Shown here in pieces: positions 343 to 54,866 of a stretch of DNA of 64,000 nucleotides. The stretch lies in NCBI GenBank assembly GCA_044356325.1, contig JBIKWJ010000002.1:24602-88601 (forward strand), read 5' to 3'. The stretch is from Minisyncoccia bacterium. Its GTDB lineage: Bacteria > Patescibacteriota > Minisyncoccia > SW-4-49-11. Both the position numbers and the translations under genes were made by a program. Below the pieces are notes generated by a model. It made no database searches and was not told the DNA's origin. It saw nothing but the letters and a program-made list of their open reading frames with translations. Numbering within the stretch: position 1 is the first letter of the stretch; every line of letters begins with the position of its first letter.

Positions 343-384
343 TATTTAGGAGCTTTTGAAATTCCCCCCTCCTCAAAAAGCAAA

Positions 385-3300
385 TTGTATTATATAATCA
401 ATGTAATGACAATACAGCAGTATATAGACAATCTCAATCAAAGATACAAGCTAGGCAATGCCACCGAGCATACTTTCCGTGGAGATTTACAACAATTATT
501 AGAAAGCCTAGTGCCCGACATCCGAGCTACCAATGAGCCTAAAAGACAAAGTTGTGGTGCCCCAGATTATATACTCACCAAAAGAGATATCCCCGTTGGA
601 TTTATCGAAGCTAAAGATATCGGTGATAAAGACCTAGATGGCCTCAAAAAAACAGGTAACAAAGAACAATTTGACCGCTACAAAGACTCCCTAGACAATC
701 TCATATTCACCGATTATATCAATTTTCACCTTTACCGAGACGGTGAACTCATCACCAAAATCAGCATAGCCCAGATAACCGAAAAAGGTCTACAGCCCAT
801 ACCCGAGAATTTCTCCATATTTAGCAATCTCATCCGAGAATTCAGCACTCATATTGGACAGAATATCAAAAGTAGCAAAAAACTCGCCGAGATGATGGCA
901 GGTAAAGCAAGACTACTCTCCGATATAATCGCCAAAGCCCTCCTAAGCGATGAAGACAATCAAGAAAATAGTACCCTCAGAGAGCAAATGCTCGCTTTCA
1001 AAAAAATCCTAATCCACGATATCACCCCGCAAGGTTTTGCTGATGTCTATGCTCAGACCATAGCCTATGGGATGTTCGCTGCTAGACTGCACGATTCTAC
1101 CCTACCCACCTTTGGGAGACAAGAAGCCGCCGAACTCATACCCAAAACCAATCCTTTTTTACGAAAATTATTCGGATATATAGCTGGACCAGATATAGAT
1201 GACAGAATCAAATGGGTAGTAGATAGCCTAGCCGACATCTTCCAAGTCGCCAATGTAGACGAAATCCTACATAATTATGGAAAATCCACCAAAATGGAAG
1301 ACCCAATCATTCATTTTTATGAAAATTTCCTCAGCGAATATGACCCCAAACTCCGAAAAGCCCGAGGAGTCTGGTATACCCCACAGCCTGTGGTGAATTT
1401 TATAGTCCGAGCCGTAGACGATATACTCAAAACCGAATTTAATCTCACCCAAGGACTAGCCGACACCAGTAAAACCAATATAAATCTAAAAACTCAAACC
1501 ACCGACAATCGCACCGCCACTGGCTACAAAAGCATATCCAAAGAAGTTCACAAAGTCCAAATTCTAGACCCCGCCACCGGTACAGGAACTTTTCTTGCTG
1601 AAATAATCCGCCAAATCAATGCCAAATTCCAAGGACAGCAAGGTCTCTGGAGCGACTATGTAGATAATCATCTCCTACCCCGAGTCAATGGCTTTGAATT
1701 GCTAATGGCAAGCTATGCTATGGCACACTTAAAATTAGATTTATTATTAAGAGATACCGGCTACAAATCCAATACAGGACAGAGATTTCGAGTTTATCTT
1801 ACCAATAGCCTTGAGGAAAGCCATCCCGACACTGGCACCTTCTTTGCTAGCTGGCTCAGCACCGAAGCCAATGAAGCCAATCATATCAAAAGAGACACCC
1901 CCGTAATGTGTATAATCGGCAATCCACCGTATAGTGTTAGTAGTAATAACAAAGGAAGTTGGATTCAAAATCTAATTATGGATTATAAAAAAGATCTAGA
2001 CGAAAAAAACATTCAGCCATTATCAGATGATTACATAAAATTCATTCGTTATGGACAGTATTATATAGACAAAAACGGTAGTGGTATACTAGCATATATA
2101 TCTAATAATAGCTTTGTTGACGGAATTATTCATAAATCAATGCGAAAAAATCTATTAGAGAGTTTTGATAAAATTTATATTTTAGACTTACACGGTAATA
2201 GCAAGAAAAAAGAAATATCCCCCGACGGTAGCCCCGATGTCAATGTCTTTGATATTCAACAAGGAGTCTCAATAAATTTCTTCATCAAAACAGGAGCCAA
2301 AAAGCCTAATGACTTAGGTAAAATCTATCATTATGACCTATATGGTAAAAGAGAATCTAAATATAATTTCCTCCAAGACAATAATCTTGCCAATATAGAA
2401 TTCCAAGAATTACAACCAAAAGAACCAAATTATTTCTTTGTAAGTAAAGATTTTGAAGGAGAATCTATTTATAAAAAATATATTGATTTAAGAACTTTGT
2501 TTATTAAAAATTCTATTGGAATTGTAACTGGAAAAGATGATGAATTAGTAAGTTTTGATAAAAATATTATTCAAGATAAATTTCAAAGTTATAATAAATT
2601 TTATTATAGACCTTTTGATATTAGGTATACAATTTTTGATAATAATATTTTACAAAGGGCAAGATACAATGTTATGCAGCACTATAATTGGGGTGAAAAT
2701 TTAGGTTTAAATATAAGTAGACAATCTAAATCAAAAGGAATTGAATGTTTAATTTCAAAAAACATTACCTGCAAACATTTAATTACTGGTGAAACTTATA
2801 ATTTCCCACTTTATCTCTATCCAGAAGATCAGAATTCTGAATTTTTACAAGACAAAGCACACACTTCGACAAGCTCAGTGCAAGGTCGAACTCCAAATCT
2901 AAATACAGAAATTATAAAGCAAATTGCAGATAATTTAAGTTTGAATTTTACTAAAGAAAAAGAAACAACCAAAGACACCTTTGCCCCGATAGATATATTA
3001 GATTATATTTATGCAGTGCTACATTCCCCTACTTATAGAGATAAGTATAAAGAGTTTTTGAAAATTGACTTCCCTCGAGTACCATATCCTCAAGATATAG
3101 CTAAATTCTGGCAATTAGTCGCTCTCGGCTCTCAACTTAGAGCCCTACATCTCCTAGAAAGCCCAATTCTAGAGACATATATCACCCAATACCCAATCGA
3201 CGGTGACAATACCATCACCAATATCCAAGTAGAACCCTGTCCTCCTTCGCCTGCCTGCGGCAGGCAGGGAGGGGGAAGCCTGAAAGGCGGAGGTGGATTG

Positions 3301-3816
3301 AGCTTAGACTCTCAAACTCAACCTGAAACCTATCCACCCTCCCCCGTCGCAAATGAGATTTACTCCTGTGAAACCTCACGGTTTCCCAACCTTCCTCCAC
3401 GGGAAAACTACCGTTTTCCCGACCCCTTTCCCAGACCTTCGGTCTATATCGGGGACTCCCTCCAAAGGGAGACAGAAAACTCAAACAAACTGTCCTCCCT
3501 TGGGGGAGATGCCCGCAGGGCGGAGGAGAACTGCCCTAAAAATTCCCCTCTTGAGGGGTGGCAGGCTTCGCCTGACGGGGTGAATAAAGACACACTCAGA
3601 ATTTACATCAACCCCACCCAATACTTTGACAAAGTCCCTAAAGTCGCTTGGGAATTCTATATCGGAGGCTATCAACCAGCTCAAAAATGGCTCAAAGATA
3701 GAAAAAACAGACAACTCAACTTTGAGGATATATTACATTATCAAAAAATTATAATCGCCCTCACCAATACCCATCATCTAATGCAACAAATCAACCACAT
3801 AAATATCGAGGAGTAA
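385..3816 (+). CDS. Large single-polypeptide Type IIG/IIL-like restriction-modification enzyme: N-terminal PD-(D/E)xK nuclease-like domain plus gamma-class N6-adenine DNA methyltransferase
   Basis: N-terminal motif APDYIL...GFIEAKDIG (PD..EAK). SAM-binding motif ILDPATGTGTFLAE. Catalytic motif CIIGNPPYSV (NPPY). Conserved C-terminal FYIGGYQPAQKWLKDRKNRQL typical of YeeA/MmeI-like methyltransferases. About 116 aa of repeat-derived low-complexity sequence is inserted in frame near the C terminus. The start may instead be the ATG at 406. Confidence 0.75.
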   Translation: MYYIINVMTIQQYIDNLNQRYKLGNATEHTFRGDLQQLLESLVPDIRATNEPKRQSCGAPDYILTKRDIPVGFIEAKDIGDKDLDGLKKTGNKEQFDRYKDSLDNLIFTDYINFHLYRDGELITKISIAQITEKGLQPIPENFSIFSNLIREFSTHIGQNIKSSKKLAEMMAGKARLLSDIIAKALLSDEDNQENSTLREQMLAFKKILIHDITPQGFADVYAQTIAYGMFAARLHDSTLPTFGRQEAAELIPKTNPFLRKLFGYIAGPDIDDRIKWVVDSLADIFQVANVDEILHNYGKSTKMEDPIIHFYENFLSEYDPKLRKARGVWYTPQPVVNFIVRAVDDILKTEFNLTQGLADTSKTNINLKTQTTDNRTATGYKSISKEVHKVQILDPATGTGTFLAEIIRQINAKFQGQQGLWSDYVDNHLLPRVNGFELLMASYAMAHLKLDLLLRDTGYKSNTGQRFRVYLTNSLEESHPDTGTFFASWLSTEANEANHIKRDTPVMCIIGNPPYSVSSNNKGSWIQNLIMDYKKDLDEKNIQPLSDDYIKFIRYGQYYIDKNGSGILAYISNNSFVDGIIHKSMRKNLLESFDKIYILDLHGNSKKKEISPDGSPDVNVFDIQQGVSINFFIKTGAKKPNDLGKIYHYDLYGKRESKYNFLQDNNLANIEFQELQPKEPNYFFVSKDFEGESIYKKYIDLRTLFIKNSIGIVTGKDDELVSFDKNIIQDKFQSYNKFYYRPFDIRYTIFDNNILQRARYNVMQHYNWGENLGLNISRQSKSKGIECLISKNITCKHLITGETYNFPLYLYPEDQNSEFLQDKAHTSTSSVQGRTPNLNTEIIKQIADNLSLNFTKEKETTKDTFAPIDILDYIYAVLHSPTYRDKYKEFLKIDFPRVPYPQDIAKFWQLVALGSQLRALHLLESPILETYITQYPIDGDNTITNIQVEPCPPSPACGRQGGGSLKGGGGLSLDSQTQPETYPPSPVANEIYSCETSRFPNLPPRENYRFPDPFPRPSVYIGDSLQRETENSNKLSSLGGDARRAEENCPKNSPLEGWQASPDGVNKDTLRIYINPTQYFDKVPKVAWEFYIGGYQPAQKWLKDRKNRQLNFEDILHYQKIIIALTNTHHLMQQINHINIEE
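3238..3595. repeat. GC-rich mosaic hairpin repeat element (copy A), lying inside the RM gene ORF
   Basis: Positions 3238-3478 are about 98% identical to 4317-4558. The 3' part carries the aaaaattcccctcttgaggggtggcaggcttcgcctgacggggtg module shared with other loci. Confidence 0.85.
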
Positions 3817-3890
3817 TAATCCCCCTTAAAAAGAAAATCTCCTCCCAATCAAGCGACGGGAGGAGAAAAAATTGAACTGAAGGAAAGCTA

Positions 3891-4223
3891 CTAGAAAGGA
3901 GTCGGTCTAGATATAAGGAACTTGGTATTTCTTGTATCTTGGGCTGTTGGGGTATTCTGAGCAAGTATTGAACAGGCTTGCTCGAGTACAGGGTACTGAA
4001 CGAACAAGTTGTTTAGCATTTGAACGCTTTGATCCCCCATGGCACTCACGTGCCTAAAAATGTTGATGACTTGATCATATAAATTCTTACCATCGTTAAC
4101 TGAGTTAGATATAATGTAACTCTCGTAAGACCTAGATATTGCGAGAACTAAATTAATGATTTCCATCTCAAACACCAATGCGAAGAACATTATTTTTATA
4201 TCATATACTATTGTATTATGCAA
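3891..4223 (-). CDS. Hypothetical protein (110 aa)
   Basis: ORF with AT-rich codon usage typical of the window, followed by an inverted-repeat terminator-like hairpin at 3845-3880 (ctcctccc...gggaggag). No recognisable motifs. Confidence 0.3.
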   Translation of the reverse strand: MHNTIVYDIKIMFFALVFEMEIINLVLAISRSYESYIISNSVNDGKNLYDQVINIFRHVSAMGDQSVQMLNNLFVQYPVLEQACSILAQNTPTAQDTRNTKFLISRPTPF

Positions 4224-4235
4224 GTAGATAATTCC

Positions 4236-4668
4236 TGTGGGGGCGACCTTTCAGTCGCCTGTGTTTCCACCCCGTCCAGCAAAGCTGTCCACCCCTCAAG
4301 AGGGGAATAGTTACTTTGTCCTCCTTCGCCTGCCTGCGGTAGGCAGGGAGGGGGAAGCCTGCAAGGCGGAGGTGGATTGAGCTTAGACTCTCAAGCTCAA
4401 CCTGAAACCTATCCACCCTCCCCCGTCGCAAATGAGATTTACTCCTGTGAAACCTCACGGTTTCCCAACCTTCCTCCACGGGAAAACTACCGTTTTCCCG
4501 ACCCCTTTCCCAGACCTTCGGTCTATATCGGGGACTCCCTCCAAAGGGAGACAGAAAGACAATCCTATTCTGTCAGCAGTAAGGAGACAAAAAGCCCAAA
4601 AAATCTGTCCTCCTTCGGAGGAGGTGGTACCTCCTATACCTTTGTTTAGGAGGTACCGGAGGTGGATA
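4236..4668. repeat. GC-rich mosaic hairpin repeat cluster (copy B plus flanking modules)
   Basis: Contains the ggcgacctttcagtcgcc hairpin, the tccaccccgtc...cccctcaagaggggaat hairpin, a 242-bp near-identical copy of 3238-3478, and ctcc/ggag hairpins. Overlapping ORFs (4216..4479, 4377..4649, 4432..4671, 4455..4769) are artefacts of the repeat. Confidence 0.85.
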
Positions 4669-4731
4669 TAAAATGATAGAAAAATGAAAAAGTACCGTCT
4701 CTGTGAAACGGCACTATGTTTTTGAGACAAA

Positions 4732-4802
4732 TCGGGATGGATGGATTCGAACCACCGGCCCCTTGCCAAAGCAAGTGCGCTACCAAGCTGCGCTACATCC
4801 CG
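4732..4802 (-). tRNA. tRNA-Pro(UGG)-like gene with an aberrantly short anticodon loop (possible pseudo-tRNA)
   Basis: The reverse complement folds as acceptor CGGGATG/CATCCCG, D arm GCGC-AGCTTGGTA-GCGC, T arm GGTGG-TTCGAAT-CCATC and variable loop GGGCC. The anticodon arm is CTTGC-TTTG-GCAAG, which is a 4-nt loop instead of 7. Total length is 71 nt. Confidence 0.45.
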
Positions 4803-4808
4803 ATAAAA

Positions 4809-5921: not shown

Positions 5922-6686
5922 CTATTTTGTCAATATTAACTGACTCCTTATACACCCCAAATATACTATACCCCCTATTATCAGATACCAATATCCTAAC
6001 CACCCAGCTATACCGGTCCAGAATATCAGACTCCATATACCAGATAAGCTAAGCCAATAGGTAATATTTTTATCCAGACTTTTACGTTTTGGGAATAATA
6101 AATAAAATCCCCAAAAAGCTAATAAACTTGTCACCATCCATCCAAAGAAATTCATCAAAGGCACATTATAATACCATCCATCAATTTCCCAAATCCAAAA
6201 TCCTAAAGCAGTAGCCCCTGGATCAAGTATCAAATCAAAGGCTGTCATCAATACTGCTCCTAATATACTTTTTACCCATATTCCCTTTAGTCCCAATCTC
6301 TCTACCAATACCAAACTCAAGAAAAAAATTGGTGTCCAAGACAAACTCACTGTCCAAGGCACTAATCCAAAGAATTTAATATTCCCGAGAAACTCACCAT
6401 ATACAAAATTGCTATATGGCCAGCCCGTTATAATAGAGAATGATTCTATCAAGATTGGATATGAGAATATAATCAGAATTTTCCACCAAGATTTCCTCCA
6501 ATCCAGCCAAAGCCATAATCCATATATCAGAGGTATAGCGAGTAATACATTGGTAAGCTGTGAAATCGCTTGGAATATCACAAAATCAAAAGGTAAAGCC
6601 TCGGGATTAATACTAAAATACACGACAAAAAACCCGCTCAAAACCAAAATAATAGATGGTACAATTACTAATAATCTCTTTTGCAT
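5922..6686 (-). CDS. Trp-rich polytopic membrane protein, possibly carotenoid-biosynthesis-protein family (CruF / lycopene-cyclase-domain-like)
   Basis: 254 aa with about 7 hydrophobic helices and many Trp residues. Positioned next to a UbiA prenyltransferase and a CrtI-family desaturase. Family assignment is from context and not verified. Confidence 0.35.
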   Translation of the reverse strand: MQKRLLVIVPSIILVLSGFFVVYFSINPEALPFDFVIFQAISQLTNVLLAIPLIYGLWLWLDWRKSWWKILIIFSYPILIESFSIITGWPYSNFVYGEFLGNIKFFGLVPWTVSLSWTPIFFLSLVLVERLGLKGIWVKSILGAVLMTAFDLILDPGATALGFWIWEIDGWYYNVPLMNFFGWMVTSLLAFWGFYLLFPKRKSLDKNITYWLSLSGIWSLIFWTGIAGWLGYWYLIIGGIVYLGCIRSQLILTK

Positions 6687-6720: not shown

Positions 6721-7560
6721 ATGAGTATTGCTAAATTATTTCGTATTTCCCGCCCCCGCTTTTGGATATATCTCCTCGGCCCCTATCTTATTGGGAGTAT
6801 ACTTGCTTTTGAGCCTACTCAACTTATATTACAATGGCAATTTTGGCTTGGATTTGTATATTTTACTTTTCCTGCCAATCTCCTTATATATGGAGTAAAT
6901 GATATTTTTGATTATGAAACTGACAAATTAAACCCCAAAAAAATAGAATATGAAACTCTCGTCACCCCAAAAGAGCGAATAAGACTTTGGCTTTTTATTC
7001 TCGCTACTAATACCCCATTTATATTCGCCCTATATCTCATAAACTCCCTCACTAGTATGGGAATATTAGGCTTTTTATTCCTTGGCATACAATATTCTAG
7101 TATCCCTATTCGCGCCAAGTCTCGACCATTCCTAGACTCCCTATTCAATATATTATATATATTCCCGGGCATTATTGGATATAGTTTATTTAGTCTATCC
7201 CTCAATTTGGATTATAGGCTTCTCATCAGTGCTGGACTATGGACAATGGCTATGCACACCTATTCCGCCATACCAGATATTGAGGCTGACAGGGCGAGTC
7301 AAACCCCTACTATTGCGACAGTACTGGGCTCAAAATTAACCCTCATTTATTGTTTTATTTGTTATACTTTGGCTGGGATTTTGTTAGCACAATTTAACCT
7401 TATACTCGGAATTGGAATAGCTATTATATATGGCTTTATGATAGGACTTAGCTATAATCAGAATTCCGCTCGAATATTCAAATTATATACCTATTTCCCC
7501 CTGCTTAATGGCATTATTGGATTTATTTTATTTTGGAGTATTGTGATTTGGTATAGGTAA
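6721..7560 (+). CDS. UbiA-family aromatic/isoprenoid prenyltransferase (lycopene-elongase-like candidate)
   Basis: Contains YGVNDIFDYETD, matching the UbiA NDxxDxxxD motif. 279 aa with about 8 TM helices. Confidence 0.6.
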   Translation: MSIAKLFRISRPRFWIYLLGPYLIGSILAFEPTQLILQWQFWLGFVYFTFPANLLIYGVNDIFDYETDKLNPKKIEYETLVTPKERIRLWLFILATNTPFIFALYLINSLTSMGILGFLFLGIQYSSIPIRAKSRPFLDSLFNILYIFPGIIGYSLFSLSLNLDYRLLISAGLWTMAMHTYSAIPDIEADRASQTPTIATVLGSKLTLIYCFICYTLAGILLAQFNLILGIGIAIIYGFMIGLSYNQNSARIFKLYTYFPLLNGIIGFILFWSIVIWYR

Positions 7561-7799: not shown

Positions 7800-8260
7800 G
7801 GGGGCCGATCTTTGTTCTAAAAATTCCCCTCAAGAGGGGTGGATTCCTGCTATGTTTACATAACAGGGAGACGGGGTGGAGTGTTTGAGAGCTATTTATT
7901 AATGATTTATTCCACCCCGTCAGGCAAGCCTGCCACCCCTCAAGAGGGGAATTTAGCTCAATCCACCTCCGACCTAAAGGTCACCCACCTCCTAAATAAA
8001 TATAGGAGGGACTTAAAGCTCCTCCAAAGGAGGACAGAATAACTGTCCCTCGCTGGCGAGGGTGGCACGGAGTGCCGGGTGTGGACAAAATTTATAATTC
8101 ATAATTTCAAATTATTCCACCCCGTCAGGCAAATAGTAATCCACCCTCCCCCTACGGGTACTCCCTCCAAAGGGAGACAAATAGAGAGAGGGTTAATTTG
8201 TCTTAAAATTCCCCTCTTGAGGGGTGGCAGGCTTTGCCTGACGGGGTGGATTGAATACTC
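7800..8260. repeat. GC-rich mosaic hairpin repeat cluster
   Basis: Contains the modules attcccctcaagaggggtgg, tccaccccgtcaggcaagcctgccacccctcaagaggggaat, cctccaaaggaggacag, gtccctcgctggcgagggtggcacggagtgccgggtgtggaca, ctccctccaaagggagaca and attcccctcttgaggggtggcaggctttgcctgacggggtgga. ORFs 7839..8042 and 8079..8507 are artefacts. Confidence 0.85.
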
Positions 8261-8261
8261 T

Positions 8262-9758
8262 CTATTCCTTAAGTGGACTATCTTGTTTGATATCAGCTAT
8301 ACGCTTATATACCATTTCAGCACTAATGAGCTGAATAGGAACTCCAATACCAGGATTAGTTCCCGCTCCGACATAATACAAATTCTTCACCTTTTTAGAA
8401 TAATTATTAGGGCGGAATATTGCTGTCTGATTAATTGTATGAGCGAGCCCCAAAGCTGTACCCTTATAGGCATTATAATCTTGTTCAAAATTCTTCACAC
8501 TATATAATCTCTTATAGATAATTCTCTCCTTCAAGTCAGGAATATTCATTTCCTCTTGCATAATAGTCAAGATTTTGTCCGCATAAGCTTCAAGATGCTC
8601 CTCAGTATACTCAAGTCCTGCCGCAATAGGGACTAATACGAATAAATTCTCATCCCCTTCTGGAGCTACATTTGGGTCTGTCTTAGATGGAGCGCATACA
8701 TACATAGATGGATCCTCTGGCCACATCGGATCATCAAAAATTTGCTTAAAGTTGGTCTTCCAATCTTGAGAGAATAACAGATTATGATGAACTAAACTAT
8801 CTACTTTTCCTCTAACCCCCAAATACATAATCAAAGCTGATGGAGCGAGAATTTTTTTATCCCAATACTTTTCATCATATTCACGATACTCTACGGGAAG
8901 TAAATTGAGCTCCGTATGAGTCATATCAGCATTAGACACCACAATATCTGCCTTCACAATTTCTCGAGACTCAAGCTCCACACCAACCGCTTTACCATTT
9001 TCTACGACAATTTGTTTTACCCCATTCCCACTCACCAAATTTACTCCATTTTTCTTGGCAATATTCACCAAGGCCTCTGTAATGGTATACATACCTCGTT
9101 GTGGATAAAACACCCCCATATTAAAATCAATATGATTCATAATACTATATAAAGCCGGAGTATTATACGGAGAACTACCGAGGAAAACCAAAGGATATTG
9201 TAAAATTTTCTTTACCAAAGGATGTTTGAAATATTTGCTCACATATGCATCCATATCACTAAATACCGACAATTTTGAACCCTCAATCATAGTACGGAAA
9301 TTGATAAAATCAAAAATAGAATTATAATTCTTATACATAAACCCGTCTTTCGCAATTTCATATTGCTGGCGAGCCTTGTCTAAATATTCTCGAAGTTTAT
9401 CCCCCGCTCCAGGTTCTAATTCTTCCAAAACAGGAATATCCCGCTCCAAATTAGAAAACATATCAATAATTTTATTATCGTCTTTGAAGAATATCCGATA
9501 AGATGGGGCAAGCCGAATCAATTCCAAATGATCTTCAACTTTTTCTCCCATAAATTCAAAGAAATTTTCAAATACATCCGGCATAAGATACCAAGAAGGA
9601 CCCATATCAAAACGAAATCCCTCAGCTTCAAAGACATTGGCTCTCCCACCAAGATTTTGATTCTTCTCATATAAAGTCACCTCATATCCTTTGCGAGCCA
9701 GGATACAGGCTGTTGCCAAACCACCAATACCCCCACCAATTACAATAACTTTTTGCAT
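8262..9758 (-). CDS. crtI: CrtI-family FAD-dependent desaturase (phytoene desaturase / CrtD-like)
   Basis: N-terminal Rossmann motif VIVIGGGIGGLATACILARKGYEVTLYEKNQNLGGR and the GFRFDMGPSW motif. 498 aa, typical of CrtI. Confidence 0.8.
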   Translation of the reverse strand: MQKVIVIGGGIGGLATACILARKGYEVTLYEKNQNLGGRANVFEAEGFRFDMGPSWYLMPDVFENFFEFMGEKVEDHLELIRLAPSYRIFFKDDNKIIDMFSNLERDIPVLEELEPGAGDKLREYLDKARQQYEIAKDGFMYKNYNSIFDFINFRTMIEGSKLSVFSDMDAYVSKYFKHPLVKKILQYPLVFLGSSPYNTPALYSIMNHIDFNMGVFYPQRGMYTITEALVNIAKKNGVNLVSGNGVKQIVVENGKAVGVELESREIVKADIVVSNADMTHTELNLLPVEYREYDEKYWDKKILAPSALIMYLGVRGKVDSLVHHNLLFSQDWKTNFKQIFDDPMWPEDPSMYVCAPSKTDPNVAPEGDENLFVLVPIAAGLEYTEEHLEAYADKILTIMQEEMNIPDLKERIIYKRLYSVKNFEQDYNAYKGTALGLAHTINQTAIFRPNNYSKKVKNLYYVGAGTNPGIGVPIQLISAEMVYKRIADIKQDSPLKE

Positions 9759-11714: not shown

Positions 11715-11847
11715 ATTATACCAGTTGATATGAATTTGTATAGAATCTTATCCAATCCTAACTATCACTCCCGAGAAGCTTCGGCTCAAACCAAAAGAAA
11801 GTCTCCCAGTACCGTGCTTGGGAGATTTTTTGTTTTATATATCATAG

Positions 11848-12240
11848 GAGCGACCTTTCAGTCGCCCGAAAGTCCTCCTCAGCCATCTCAAATTGGATTT
11901 ACTTTGTCCTCCTTTGCCTGCCTGCGGTAGGCAGGGAGGAGGTGGCCGCCAGGCTGGAGGTGGATAATTAAAAAATATATTCTAAAATTTAATATTATTA
12001 AAAACAAATCCACCCTCCCCCTACGGGTACTCCCTCCAAAGGGAGACAAAAATCTCGAATAACCTGTCCCCCTTCGGAGGACAGAATAACTGTCCCTCGC
12101 TGGCGAGGGTGGCACGGAGTGCCGGGTGTGGACAGAGAGTTTTTAATTTATAATTTCAAATTATTCCACCCCGTCTCTCTCCTCAATAAAGTATAGGAGG
12201 GATCCACCCCTCAATTCCCACAAAATATGGGAATTTTTCT
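11848..12240. repeat. GC-rich mosaic hairpin repeat cluster
   Basis: Contains ggagcgacctttcagtcgccc, tgtcctcctttgcctgcctgcggtaggcagggagg, ctccctccaaagggagaca, gtccctcgctggcgagggtggcacggagtgccgggtgtggaca and attccaccccgtc modules. ORFs 11694..11930 and 11888..12115 are artefacts. Confidence 0.85.
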
Positions 12241-52805: not shown

Positions 52806-54866
52806 TTATTCAGTATAGGGAATAAGACTTATTTTTCCTTCAGCATCTACTTTTTTGATTTTTACTCGTATACTCTGATGTAATTCTAACACATCTTCCA
52901 CATTATTAACATGTTCTTTAGATAATTCTGAAATGTGGATAAGTCCATCTATTCCTGGCTTTATCGATACAAAGGCTCCAAATGGCATAATTTTTACTAC
53001 CCTTCCCTCAAATATTTCTCCTTCTTGTGGCTCATATACCAAATCCTTTATCCACTCTTTAGCTCGAATCACCTGAGTTGCATCTTGACCAGTAATAAAT
53101 ACTTGCCCATCATCTTCTATATCAATTTTTACTCCCGTCTCATCAATAATACCATTAATAATTTTACCTCCGGTCCCAATAACTTCTCCAATTTTCTTGG
53201 GGTTAATTGCAAAGGTTTCAATTTTAGGAGCATATTCTGAAACTTGATTACGAGCTTCTGCAATCACACTCTTTAGCGTGTCAAGAATGGTAAGCCTAGC
53301 TATTTTAGCTTTTTCCAAAGCCTCTTTTATCATAGCAATAGACATACCCTGCCCCTTAATATCCATTTGTATTGCATTAACTCCATTATGCGTTCCTGCG
53401 ACTTTAAAGTCCATTTCTCCAAAATGATCTTCTGGCCCCTGTATATCTGTTAAAATCTTATATTTACCATTTTGCTCTACAATACCCATAGCAATTCCAG
53501 CTACAGGAGCTATTATAGGAACACCTGCTGCCAAAAGAACTAAGGTTGAAGAACATACACTTGCCATAGAAGATGATCCATTAGACCCTAATACTTCAGT
53601 GACAATACGAATAGTATATGGAAAATCAGCTACAGAGGGCAATACTCCTTCCAGAGCCTTCTCAGCCAAAGCTCCATGACCTATTTCACGGCGACCGGGT
53701 CCACGAAGCTGCCTCACCTCTCCCACAGAAAAAGGGGGGAAATTATAATGATGCATAAATCGCTTTTTGATTTCATCTTTCATCTCATCAATAATTTGAG
53801 CCTCCCCTGGAGAACCCAAAGTCAAAATAGATAATGTTTGTGTAGTTCCACGATTGAATAGCCCTGACCCATGCACTCGAGGTAATATATCAATTTCTCC
53901 ACTTAATTCTCTGAGCTGATCTATAGATCTTCCATCGGGACGTTTTTCTTGTTCAATAATATTCTGCTTAAATATAGCATCTAATTCTTTATCCAAAGTA
54001 TGCTCTACCAAATCTCTATGATCAGGATAAGCCTGATTGAGTTCAGTTAGCAATATATGATGAGCTTGTTTGGTAGAAGGAGTATCCCCATACAAAGCAG
54101 AGTCTAATTTCCCTTGCACAAGAGACTTAATCCCCTCTATAATCTCATTATTCGATTCCGAGACAGAAACCTCTCTTTTGGACTTACCAATCTCAGCAAT
54201 AATAGTATTCTGGAAATCTATTATTTTTTTAATTTCTGGAGTCACTACTTCAAAAGCTTTTAGTATAGTCTCTTCAGGAATTTGCTTCCCTCCAAACTCC
54301 ATCATCACCAATCTCTCATCAGCATTAAGCGTAATAATAGTATCAAAGTCTCCTTCTTCCCTTTCATCAAATGAAGGGTTAACAATTATCTCTCCATTTT
54401 GCTGCCCTACTCTCAAGCCCGCAACAGGACCATTCCACGGAATATCTGATATAGACAAAGCCAGAGACGCTCCAAATAAAGCAACTGCATCAGGATCATT
54501 TCTTTCATCCAAAGATAATGTTGTTACAATAACTTGTATCTCATTACGAATTGATTGATCAAAAAAAGGTCTTATAGCCCGGTCCACAAGACGCCCAGTC
54601 AATATAGACTCATCGCTCGGTCTTCCCTCACGCTTTACAAAACGACTTCCCTTGATTTTACCATTAGCATAAAACTTTTCCTGATAATCAACAAAAAGGG
54701 GTAAATAATTAGAACTTACTGGTTTAGCCGACATTACAACAGTTACTAATACCGTTGTCTCTCCTAGAGAAACCAAAACAGAACCATCGGCTTGATTCGC
54801 TAATTTACCCGTTTCTACTTTTAGTATTTGTCCAGCTATTTGCGTTTGATATGTTTTGAAACTCAT
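52806..54866 (-). CDS. pnp: Polyribonucleotide nucleotidyltransferase (PNPase)
   Basis: 686 aa with two RNase PH domains plus KH and S1 domains (GEIFEGRVVKIMPFGAFVSI...). Confidence 0.95.
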   Translation of the reverse strand: MSFKTYQTQIAGQILKVETGKLANQADGSVLVSLGETTVLVTVVMSAKPVSSNYLPLFVDYQEKFYANGKIKGSRFVKREGRPSDESILTGRLVDRAIRPFFDQSIRNEIQVIVTTLSLDERNDPDAVALFGASLALSISDIPWNGPVAGLRVGQQNGEIIVNPSFDEREEGDFDTIITLNADERLVMMEFGGKQIPEETILKAFEVVTPEIKKIIDFQNTIIAEIGKSKREVSVSESNNEIIEGIKSLVQGKLDSALYGDTPSTKQAHHILLTELNQAYPDHRDLVEHTLDKELDAIFKQNIIEQEKRPDGRSIDQLRELSGEIDILPRVHGSGLFNRGTTQTLSILTLGSPGEAQIIDEMKDEIKKRFMHHYNFPPFSVGEVRQLRGPGRREIGHGALAEKALEGVLPSVADFPYTIRIVTEVLGSNGSSSMASVCSSTLVLLAAGVPIIAPVAGIAMGIVEQNGKYKILTDIQGPEDHFGEMDFKVAGTHNGVNAIQMDIKGQGMSIAMIKEALEKAKIARLTILDTLKSVIAEARNQVSEYAPKIETFAINPKKIGEVIGTGGKIINGIIDETGVKIDIEDDGQVFITGQDATQVIRAKEWIKDLVYEPQEGEIFEGRVVKIMPFGAFVSIKPGIDGLIHISELSKEHVNNVEDVLELHQSIRVKIKKVDAEGKISLIPYTE

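What the first reader, a model, noticed from the sequence alone, without database searches (positions are those of the whole stretch)
3238..3595. Mosaic repeat element inserted in frame into a Type IIG restriction-modification gene
Seen in sequence: the 1143-aa RM ORF has an intact nuclease motif (PD...EAK), an SAM motif (ILDPATGTGTFLAE), NPPY and the conserved C-terminal FYIGGYQPAQKWLKDRKNRQL. Between ...IQVEPC and DTLRIYINPTQYF it carries about 348 nt that are 98% identical to an intergenic repeat copy at 4317-4558 plus the shared cccctcttgagggg module. The insertion stays open in frame and adds about 116 aa of Pro/Gly-rich low-complexity sequence (PPSPACGRQGGGSLKGGGG...). In related YeeA/MmeI-like enzymes these two flanking blocks are separated by only a few residues. 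Inference: the insert is either a tolerated loop, a way of inactivating the enzyme, or a phase-variation-like modulation of the RM system by the genome's own miniature repeat family.
Basis: partly seen in the sequence, partly recalled or inferred. Interest (0 to 1): 0.6.

Follow-up and report, generated by a model that had tools for sequence, protein, structure and literature searches.

The report
Hairpin-repeat cluster inside a restriction enzyme gene
A 348-base patchwork of the genome's own small hairpin repeats sits in frame in a surface loop of an intact restriction-modification enzyme gene of an uncultured Patescibacteria-like bacterium; it looks like tolerated selfish DNA, a known phenomenon shown here in an unusually large and fast-changing form.

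Summary
Window 3238-3585 (348 nt, 116 codons) is a GC-rich mosaic of hairpin repeats inside the open 1143-aa ORF 385-3816. Its first 241 nt match an intergenic copy 1079 nt downstream with 3 mismatches.

The host gene is a DrdV-like single-chain Type IIL/IIG restriction-modification enzyme with intact nuclease, SAM and NPPY motifs. The organism is probably Patescibacteria (Parcubacteria/Minisyncoccia).

In 71 of 105 homologs the two flanking blocks are 11 residues apart. Only the window's own clade carries repeat-derived inserts here.

Nine alleles read at DNA level carry six different module mosaics, and a tenth seen only as a protein fragment carries another. All are in frame, although single module indels are often not multiples of three.

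The C-terminus after the insert is under purifying selection (dN/dS 0.05-0.13). The insert peptide itself drifts (pN/pS about 0.9) and is modelled as a disordered loop at a beta-hairpin tip.

Best reading: tolerated REP/BIME-like selfish DNA in a permissive loop, like Rickettsia RPEs and intragenic REPs. It does not inactivate this allele.

Contigs that look like recombination products between the genic and intergenic copies exist, but could be assembly artefacts.

The parts
385..3816 (+). Host gene: single-chain restriction-modification enzyme (N-terminal PD-(D/E)XK nuclease, N6-adenine methyltransferase, Type_ISP_C target-recognition/C-terminal domain; no helicase). The relatives' proteins start at the ATG at 406.
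   Evidence: ORF. Pfam Type_ISP_C 3.7e-72, N6_Mtase and MmeI_Mtase. Best solved relatives are DrdV 7LO5, LlaGI and LlaBIII, by sequence and by fold.
3238..3585 (+). In-frame mosaic insert: 348 nt, 116 codons, 38% Pro+Gly+Ser.
   Evidence: Folds far better than shuffles as RNA (z -5.4) and as DNA (z -5.3). Residues 956-1066 have pLDDT below 50 and no secondary structure, and lie between strands 948-951 and 1070-1074.
3238..3301 (+). Module A, left arm (TGTCCTCCTTCG...GGAGGTGGATTGA). It carries a nested 19-nt hairpin CCTGCCTGCGGCAGGCAGG at 3250-3268, in the loop of the TCCTCC/GGAGGA hairpin.
   Evidence: The 19-nt hairpin is absent from the L083/L091/L001 alleles. It is present in another module context in the L086 allele and at 4329 and 11917.
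3296..3345 (+). Module A, core.
   Evidence: 100% identical in the genic inserts of L001, L083 and L091. Also found upstream of the L087 gene.
3346..3449 (+). 104-105-nt module of three tetraloop hairpins. It sits in the loop of a CCCC/GGGG hairpin, where relatives have TAC.
   Evidence: 100% identical to 4425-4528. Absent from all eight related loci searched. Translations of it occur in other metagenome proteins, P0244 and P0245.
3450..3478 (+). Module A, right arm (CGGGGACTCCCTCCAAAGGGAGACAGAAA). This is the end of the 241-nt tract shared with the intergenic copy.
3489..3535 (+). Module B (two hairpins, TGTCCTCCCTTGGGGGAGA + TGCCCGCAGGGCG).
   Evidence: It looks like a terminator on the minus strand only.
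3541..3585 (+). Module C (CCCCTCTTGAGGGG + GGCAGGCTTCGCCTGAC + GGGGTG).
   Evidence: Six further copies in the window, on both strands. It looks like a terminator on the minus strand only.
3586..3816 (+). Conserved C-terminal 76 codons plus the stop, after the insert. Kept in frame.
   Evidence: dN/dS 0.05 against L001/L083 and 0.13 against L086. pLDDT 73-88.
4229..4665 (+). Intergenic repeat cluster. It holds the twin copy 4317-4557, a GTAG-type REP (GTGG variant, GGGGCGACCTTTCAGTCGCC at 4240-4259), and an inverted module C at 4266-4308.
   Evidence: The relatives' cluster at this position is only about 140 nt.

Best explanation
The insert is a cluster of the genome's own small GC-rich hairpin repeats. 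They are REP/BIME-like: short palindromes that occur in mosaic arrays and nest into one another's loops. The cluster has colonised the tip of a naturally length-variable beta-hairpin loop in the C-terminal (Type_ISP_C) domain of a DrdV-like Type IIL restriction-modification enzyme.

Shown here: the cluster is remodelled quickly between strains by module gain, module loss and recombination. Selection on the enzyme lets through only variants that keep the reading frame and contain no stop. The encoded Pro/Gly/Ser-rich peptide is an unconstrained, probably disordered loop.

Inferred: the enzyme remains active, and the insert gives it no function. It is tolerated selfish DNA.

A side effect is that the genic cluster and its 98.8% identical twin 1 kb downstream are a ready substrate for homologous recombination. 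Such an event would remove or duplicate the gene's 3' end.
For: 1. Repeat nature. The 241-nt near-identical twin and multi-copy modules lie mostly between genes in the window and in related genomes. Predicted folding is strong. One family (GTAGGGGCGACCTTTCAGTCGCC) has the GTAG tag of classical REPs and lies in frame in the L087 allele. The L086 allele carries the same palindrome behind an ATAG variant.

2. Permissive site. The linker is 11 aa in 71 of 105 homologs, but 22, 30-31 and 69-70 aa of unrelated sequence in others. The insert is modelled as coil with pLDDT below 50 between two confident strands.

3. Selection for frame. Nine alleles read as DNA have region lengths of 417, 408, 408, 318, 318, 186, 186, 261 and 249 nt, all multiples of three. 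Individual indels of 19, 101+1, 50+28 and 14 nt are not. A further allele, P0247, is also in frame.

4. The enzyme is still under constraint. dN/dS is 0.00-0.09 just before the insert and 0.05-0.13 after it in the comparisons with enough differences (0.23 against L091, from two differences). Catalytic motifs are intact.

5. The insert peptide is not constrained. Pooled pN/pS is 0.86, from 17 nonsynonymous and 6 synonymous differences.

6. Recombination inside the cluster. Identity to L091 jumps from 89-90% on the 5' side to 98.5-98.7% on the 3' side.

7. Precedent. In-frame RPEs and intragenic GTAG/CGTC REPs are described in PMC10969869 and PMC3733652.
Against: - No activity, methylome or expression data exist, so 'still active' rests on sequence conservation only.
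- The structure model is mediocre overall (mean pLDDT 63.7, pTM 0.38). Its position relative to bound DNA could not be examined.
- The pN/pS estimate for the insert rests on 23 differences.
- No mobilising enzyme was found. None of the 10 small window ORFs tested is a RAYT, and no Y1 transposase appears in the gene tables of the related loci. How the modules move is therefore unknown.
- All sequences are metagenome assemblies.
Confidence: 0.7

Rival explanations
1. Recombination device. The genic cluster (G) and the intergenic twin (I) act as direct repeats. Recombination between them truncates the enzyme by a 1079-bp deletion of the last 76 codons and the neighbouring small ORF, or duplicates the 3' end. 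This would give populations a repeat-mediated way of switching off or remodelling the restriction system.
For: G and I share 241 nt at 98.8% in direct orientation. P0008 is identical to the full-length P0121 up to the A-right module, then reads exactly like the window's intergenic copy to a stop. This is the expected deletion product. L093, a 152.8-kb scaffold, has the order tRNA synthetase | D | cluster | RM 3' remnant starting in the insert | D | cluster | rest. This is the arrangement expected after G x I exchange, and it lacks the 5' 2.9 kb of the gene. A breakpoint in allele similarity lies inside the cluster.
Against: P0008 lies on a 4-kb contig and comes from the same sample as a 1-kb contig of the reciprocal type. 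That is exactly the pair of mis-joins an assembler makes across a repeat. L093 could be a walk through an assembly graph that mixes strains: 21 of its 22 mismatches between the duplicated units lie in the first 242 nt. The event would be one-way, not reversible. No DNA for P0008 could be fetched.
Confidence: 0.15
2. Gain of function. The insert encodes a useful flexible loop or linker, for example one that affects enzyme oligomerisation or access to DNA, and is kept for that reason.
For: Every member of this clade has some insert at the site. Unrelated lineages also carry 22-70 aa extensions there.
Against: The content differs almost completely between alleles (65 to 142 aa between YPIDGDN and LRIYINP, with different modules). 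pN/pS is about 0.9. The model shows no predicted structure. The same DNA occurs in non-coding positions.
Confidence: 0.07
3. Inactivating insertion. The gene is a recent pseudogene that merely happens to remain open.
For: Decayed relatives exist. P0245 is frameshifted and carries the 105-nt module. P0248/L093 is a 3' remnant.
Against: Frame and motifs are intact. Ten alleles are in frame with seven different mosaics. The downstream segment has dN/dS 0.05-0.13.
Confidence: 0.05
4. Assembly artefact. The genic copy was built from reads of the intergenic copy.
For: The source is a metagenome contig with a 241-nt repeat 1 kb apart.
Against: The two copies differ at 3 positions and each sits in syntenic unique flanks. 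The protein is recorded on two contigs of 159.6 kb under NCBI and JGI sources. Independent assemblies from other samples carry related in-frame mosaics at the same codon.
Confidence: 0.03

Closest known systems
Rickettsia palindromic elements (RPEs; Ogata et al. 2000, as summarised in PMC10969869)
   Same: Palindromic repeated DNA of a small AT-rich genome is inserted in frame into protein genes. The host protein apparently stays functional, and the added peptide lies where the fold tolerates it.
   Different: RPEs are single units of about 100-150 bp with a conserved encoded peptide, found in dozens of unrelated genes. Here there is a nested mosaic of 14-105-nt hairpins, and its content changes between strains. 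It was seen in one gene only across about 170 kb of this lineage. Sequence relatedness to RPEs was not tested.
REPs, BIMEs and REPINs, including intragenic GTAG/CGTC-tagged REPs (Di Nocera et al. 2013, PMC3733652)
   Same: They are short GC-rich stem-loops, clustered in mosaic arrays in alternating orientation and mostly extragenic. One family here carries the GTAG tag. Grouped REPs inside genes that add 20-30 aa are already described.
   Different: The insert here is 116 aa. Most modules in the window's insert lack a GTAG or CGTC tag. No RAYT was found in the sequence examined. Patescibacteria are not among the phyla that paper lists.
Small dispersed repeats of heterocyst-forming cyanobacteria (Elhai et al. 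2008; recalled from my own knowledge, paper not read here)
   Same: Very small hairpin-forming repeats insert into one another and build mosaics.
   Different: A different phylum and different sequences. This comparison rests on memory only.
DrdV / MmeI-type Type IIL restriction-modification enzymes (PDB 7LO5, 5HR4) and Type ISP enzymes LlaGI/LlaBIII
   Same: The host protein matches DrdV over its full length by fold (Foldseek E 3e-31). It shares the methyltransferase and the Type_ISP_C domain with LlaGI and LlaBIII.
   Different: It has no helicase motor, unlike Type ISP enzymes. Identity to DrdV is only 18-20%. None of these solved structures was checked for an insert at this loop.
Phase-variable restriction-modification systems (simple-sequence repeats, or hsdS inversion; my own knowledge)
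   Same: Repeats inside or beside a restriction-modification gene could change its expression or integrity.
   Different: There is no homopolymer or short tandem tract, no invertase and no inverted hsdS-like cassettes. Any G x I event would be a one-way deletion or duplication.

Membership tests
Type IIL/IIG single-chain restriction-modification enzyme (DrdV/MmeI-like) | N-terminal PD-(D/E)XK nuclease motif | tested here: met
   P60 D61 ... E75 A76 K77 are invariant in 70 homologs.
Type IIL/IIG single-chain restriction-modification enzyme (DrdV/MmeI-like) | N6-adenine methyltransferase with SAM motif and NPPY | tested here: met
   Pfam N6_Mtase and MmeI_Mtase. DPATGTGT and N513-P-P-Y516 are conserved.
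Type IIL/IIG single-chain restriction-modification enzyme (DrdV/MmeI-like) | C-terminal target-recognition domain in the same polypeptide, with no ATPase/helicase motor | tested here: met
   Type_ISP_C at 3.7e-72 and no helicase family hit. Full-length fold match to DrdV.
Type IIL/IIG single-chain restriction-modification enzyme (DrdV/MmeI-like) | Cleavage at a fixed distance from an asymmetric site, and m6A modification of that site | not testable with these tools
   Needs enzyme assays or methylome data.
REP / BIME (repetitive extragenic palindromes in mosaic clusters) | Short GC-rich imperfect palindromes present in many copies | tested here: met
   Modules of 14-45 nt have 3-8 copies each in 64 kb, plus copies in related genomes. 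There are about 12 clusters in the window.
REP / BIME (repetitive extragenic palindromes in mosaic clusters) | Mosaic clusters with units in both orientations | tested here: met
   Clusters at 4229-4665, 7811-8256 and 11847-12180 combine the same modules in different orders and orientations.
REP / BIME (repetitive extragenic palindromes in mosaic clusters) | GTAG (or CGTC) tetranucleotide tag at one end | tested here: inconclusive
   Met for the GGGGCGACC...GTCGCC family: 7 of 8 strict-pattern copies have GTAG. Modules A, B and C and the 19-nt hairpin of the window's insert show no such tag by direct reading.
REP / BIME (repetitive extragenic palindromes in mosaic clusters) | Associated RAYT (IS200/IS605-type tyrosine transposase) in the genome | tested here: inconclusive
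   None among the 10 small ORFs of the window that were tested. None in the gene tables of related loci. Only a fraction of the genome was examined.
Rickettsia palindromic elements (RPE) | In-frame insertion into genes that remain under selection | tested here: met
Rickettsia palindromic elements (RPE) | One element family inserted in many unrelated genes, encoding a conserved peptide | tested here: not met
   This is the only genic cluster in the window, and every copy found in the related loci apart from those inside the RM gene lies between called genes. The insert peptide finds only 5 proteins among 1.84 billion representatives. The peptide is not conserved between alleles.
MITE (miniature inverted-repeat transposable element) | Terminal inverted repeats plus target-site duplication | tested here: not met
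   Module A has inverted ends (TGTCCTCCTTCGGAGG ... CCTCCAAAGGGAGACA). No duplicated target is visible at filled versus empty sites for the 19-nt hairpin, the 105-nt module or the whole insert.

The most novel reading that the evidence does not exclude
The genic repeat cluster and its downstream twin form a working recombination module. It repeatedly truncates, duplicates or reshuffles the 3' end of the restriction enzyme gene in natural Patescibacteria populations. On this reading P0008 and L093 are real products, and resident selfish hairpin repeats provide a population-level switch for a defence gene.
Probability: 0.15. Interest if true: 0.55.

Novelty: new member of a known kind. Interest (0 to 1): 0.4.

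Why it matters
It is a clean natural example of how far a folded enzyme can tolerate selfish DNA. One loop has absorbed 40 to 120 extra residues in at least seven different versions while the rest of the protein stays under strong constraint.

It also shows that a streamlined Patescibacteria-like genome carries an active family of REP-like hairpin repeats. In the paper library searched, no relevant paper links REPs with Patescibacteria.

In practice, the loop marks a safe insertion site for engineering DrdV/Type ISP-like enzymes. Gene callers and assemblers will also often break or mis-join this gene family at such repeats.

Tried and rejected
- Cyanobacterial origin was my first guess from the repeat style. 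I rejected it: the PNPase at 52806-54866 has its best named relatives in Candidatus Parcubacteria/Minisyncoccia at 77-79%, and the carotenoid genes are CrtI-type.
- Rfam, at gathering threshold on the whole window and at E<=1 on 3150-4720, finds only tRNAs and sub-threshold chance hits.
- The genome-contig scan returned only distant homologs at 58-72% identity from other phyla. I did not inspect their DNA at this site. The window's species is not in that set.
- The metagenome scan with the conserved 36-mer upstream of the insert gave one more allele only, L092.
- Modules C and GTAG-REP have no exact match in viral contigs.
- The RAYT search in 10 small ORFs found none.
- RNAalifold on 11 variants of the A-left unit gave no structure, because MAFFT mis-registered the indels. 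Stem covariation (GGCAC/GTGCC, GCC/GGC, GGCC/GGCC, GCCC/GGGC) therefore rests on direct reading only.
- DNA for the P0008 contig could not be fetched.
- The reading that the genic copy was simply overwritten by the intergenic copy is weakened. P0247 has the 19-nt hairpin but not the 105-nt module in its gene, and the relatives' intergenic cluster lacks module A. The direction of copying is unresolved.
Full report
**The observation**

The ORF 385..3816 (+) is open for 1143 aa. Window 3238-3478 is repeated at 4317-4557, in direct orientation and 1079 nt downstream. The match runs over 241 ungapped nt with three mismatches, at 3261, 3283 and 3316.

The rest of the insert (3479-3585) is made of two other repeat modules:
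- Module B at 3489-3535.
- Module C at 3541-3585 (CCCCTCTTGAGGGG, GGCAGGCTTCGCCTGAC, GGGGTG). Module C has six further copies in the window, on both strands.

The insert has 51-56% GC. The surrounding gene has 20-40% and the whole window 36%. It folds much better than shuffled sequence, as RNA (z -5.4) and as DNA (z -5.3). Only the enzyme's reading frame is free of stop codons; the other five frames hold 1-6 stops. The encoded 116 residues are 38% Pro+Gly+Ser.

The near-identical tract is 241 nt, not 348.

**The host gene**

Pfam finds Type_ISP_C (3.7e-72, in two stretches split by the insert), N6_Mtase and MmeI_Mtase, and no helicase. The closest solved structures are the Type IIL enzyme DrdV (7LO5) and then the Type ISP enzymes LlaGI and LlaBIII, both by sequence and by fold (Foldseek E 3e-31 for DrdV over the full length). 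MmeI appears only in the fold search, more distantly.

The nuclease motif (PD...EAK), the SAM motif and NPPY lie in columns that are invariant or nearly so across 70 homologs. The gene is therefore a DrdV-like single-chain Type IIL/IIG restriction-modification enzyme by architecture. Its activity is untested.

**The organism**

The PNPase in the window has near-identical unnamed metagenome relatives. Its best named relatives are Candidatus Parcubacteria and Minisyncoccia at 77-79% identity. The window is a JGI metagenome contig of 159.6 kb. This is probably a Patescibacteria (CPR) genome, not a cyanobacterium.

**The insertion point**

In 105 homologs where both flanking motifs can be found, the linker between QYPxxGxN and (V/I)YINxxQYF has these lengths:
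- 11 aa in 71 homologs.
- 22 aa in 19 homologs.
- 18, 30 and 31 aa in one homolog each.
- 69-70 aa of unrelated sequence in 4 Bacteroidota proteins.
- 53-130 aa only in the window's own clade.

The AlphaFold model is mediocre overall (mean pLDDT 63.7). It nevertheless places strands at 948-951 and 1070-1074 with good local confidence, and leaves 956-1066 as coil with pLDDT below 50. The site is the tip of a beta-hairpin whose length varies naturally.

**Orthologous loci**

I retrieved DNA for eight further alleles:
- L001, L083, L086 and L091 lie in the same genomic context as the window, judged from their called genes. L092 shares the downstream DNA flank; its genes were not examined.
- L084, L087 and L089 lie in other contexts.

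All carry hairpin-module mosaics at exactly this codon position, but with different content. The region from YPIDGDN to LRIYINP is 142, 109, 139, 90, 65, 65 and 86 aa in the seven alleles measured this way.

The region lengths for all nine alleles are 417, 408, 408, 318, 318, 186, 186, 261 and 249 nt. Every one is a multiple of three. The individual differences between alleles are often not: a 19-nt hairpin, 101+1 nt, 50+28 nt and 14 nt. A tenth allele (P0247) has the 19-nt hairpin but not the 105-nt module, and is also in frame.

The 19-nt hairpin occurs in two different module contexts, A-left in the window and a TGTCC...GGACA unit in L086. This argues that it moves on its own and nests into other hairpins.

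One module family, GTAGGGGCGACCTTTCAGTCGCC, carries the GTAG tag of classical REPs. It lies in frame in the L087 allele. The L086 allele carries the same palindrome behind an ATAG variant.

**Selection**

Just before the insert, dN/dS against seven alleles is 0.00-0.09. After it, dN/dS is 0.05 against L001 and L083 and 0.13 against L086. The value against L091 (0.23) rests on two differences. The C-terminal 76 codons are therefore translated in frame and constrained.

Within the inserts of three allele pairs, pooled pN/pS is 0.86, from 17 nonsynonymous and 6 synonymous differences. The numbers are small but point to a peptide without constraint.

In the window, none of the other roughly 12 repeat clusters lies inside a long ORF. 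Every copy found in the related loci, apart from those inside the RM gene itself, lies between called genes.

**Recombination**

The window allele is 89-90% identical to L091 upstream of the insert and 98.5-98.7% identical downstream of position 3450. A breakpoint therefore lies inside the cluster.

The target-recognition core (about 2442-2803) is a different cassette in most alleles.

The relatives' intergenic cluster at the position of 4229-4665 is only about 140 nt and lacks module A. The window's intergenic twin is therefore a recent copy, but the direction of copying is unresolved.

Two records look like products of exchange between the genic cluster (G) and the intergenic cluster (I):
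- P0008 is identical to the full-length P0121 up to the A-right module. It then reads like the window's intergenic copy to a stop. This is the expected deletion product.
- L093, a 152.8-kb scaffold in the same genomic context, has the order tRNA synthetase | D | cluster | 3' remnant of the gene starting inside the insert | D | cluster | rest. The first 2.9 kb of the gene are missing.

Both could be assembly artefacts. P0008 and a reciprocal-type 1-kb contig come from the same sample, which is the pattern of mis-joins across a repeat. In L093 the duplicated units differ almost only in their first 242 nt. Read-level data are needed.

**What it is and how it works**

The best-supported reading has three parts:
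- Selfish REP/BIME-like hairpin repeats have colonised a permissive loop.
- Selection keeps them in frame.
- They add a disordered passenger peptide and give the enzyme no function.

This works like Rickettsia palindromic elements and like the intragenic GTAG/CGTC REPs described by Di Nocera et al. (PMC10969869, PMC3733652). It is not a member of the RPE families as defined: one gene only, no conserved peptide. It does not show MITE hallmarks, since no target duplication is seen. REP membership is partial. Hairpins, copy number and mosaic clusters fit, and one family carries the GTAG tag. No RAYT was found in the sequence examined.

**Verdict**

The phenomenon is known. The Patescibacteria host, the size of the insert (116 aa) and the number of co-existing mosaics at a single codon are unusual. 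Interest 0.4.

Noticed in passing
window 362-385 and 3819-3838; L093 3976-3999: The restriction enzyme gene is bracketed by an imperfect direct repeat of about 20 nt (TTCCCCCCTCCTCAAAAAGCAAAT / ATCCCCCTTAAAAAGAAAAT). L093 has a single copy joining the tRNA-synthetase end directly to the downstream region. This is either an 'empty site' or a precise loss, and suggests the whole gene behaves as a cassette.
   Followed up: partly
window about 2442-2803 (codons about 686-806): The core of the target-recognition domain is a different, unalignable cassette in L083, L091, L086, L084, L087 and L089, while both flanks stay 86-94% identical. This points to specificity swapping by recombination between strains at one locus.
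   Followed up: partly
window 385-3816 versus loci L002-L081: Homologs of this enzyme are 58-72% identical across Bacteroidota, Methylacidiphilales, Competibacteraceae, Rhodocyclaceae, Trichlorobacter, Fidelibacterota and an Oscillatoriales MAG. That is unusually high conservation and suggests wide horizontal transfer.
   Followed up: no
window 4731-4803 (-): A tRNA-like gene next to tRNA-Lys(CTT) scores 58.5 bits with the Rfam tRNA model, but ARAGORN gives it a two-base 'anticodon'. The anticodon arm (CTTGCTTTGGCAAG) has an irregular, short loop.
   Followed up: partly
window 3494-3509 and 3545-3558 (minus strand): Modules B and C look like intrinsic terminators (hairpin plus T-run) only on the strand opposite to the enzyme gene. 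Inside the gene they sit in the non-terminating orientation. A copy of module C lies right after the 3' end of the CrtI-like gene (8207-8248) in the terminating orientation.
   Followed up: partly
window 5922-6686 (-), 6721-7560 (+), 8262-9758 (-): Carotenoid genes sit together in a genome that looks like Patescibacteria: a Caroten_synth/CruF-like protein, a UbiA-type prenyltransferase, and a CrtI-family bifunctional desaturase (NF058655, 6e-197). The family names for the first two come from syntenic loci. Pigment synthesis is not what one expects of such reduced genomes.
   Followed up: no
proteins P0242 and P0246 (other metagenomes): These are predicted 'proteins' made of tandem units that each contain SPPVEGWQASPDGVV, the translation of a module-C-like sequence. 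Similar hairpin DNA therefore forms long tandem arrays elsewhere.
   Followed up: no
proteins P0251, P0019, P0031, P0034, P0067, and P0016-type: Other lineages carry their own extensions at the same loop: a short GC-hairpin-like SSPPSEGLGEVDGLREVG, a conserved 69-70-aa segment with SFPQPHL..DMLLHEP, and a 22-aa form. The loop is a recurrent site of insertion across phyla.
   Followed up: partly
L093 4519-4911 and 6055-6447: A DUF559 (Vsr-like endonuclease fold) gene lies beside the remnant of the enzyme gene and is duplicated with it. Some homologs (P0054, P0260, P0270, P0273) have DUF559 fused to their C-terminus.
   Followed up: no
window 4625-4665: The unit GGAGGAGGTGG-hairpin-CCGGAGGTGGAT has a 9-bp GGTACCTCC/GGAGGTACC stem with a 14-nt loop, where relatives have GGCAC-GAA-GTGCC. 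This is another case of a hairpin grown inside a hairpin.
   Followed up: no
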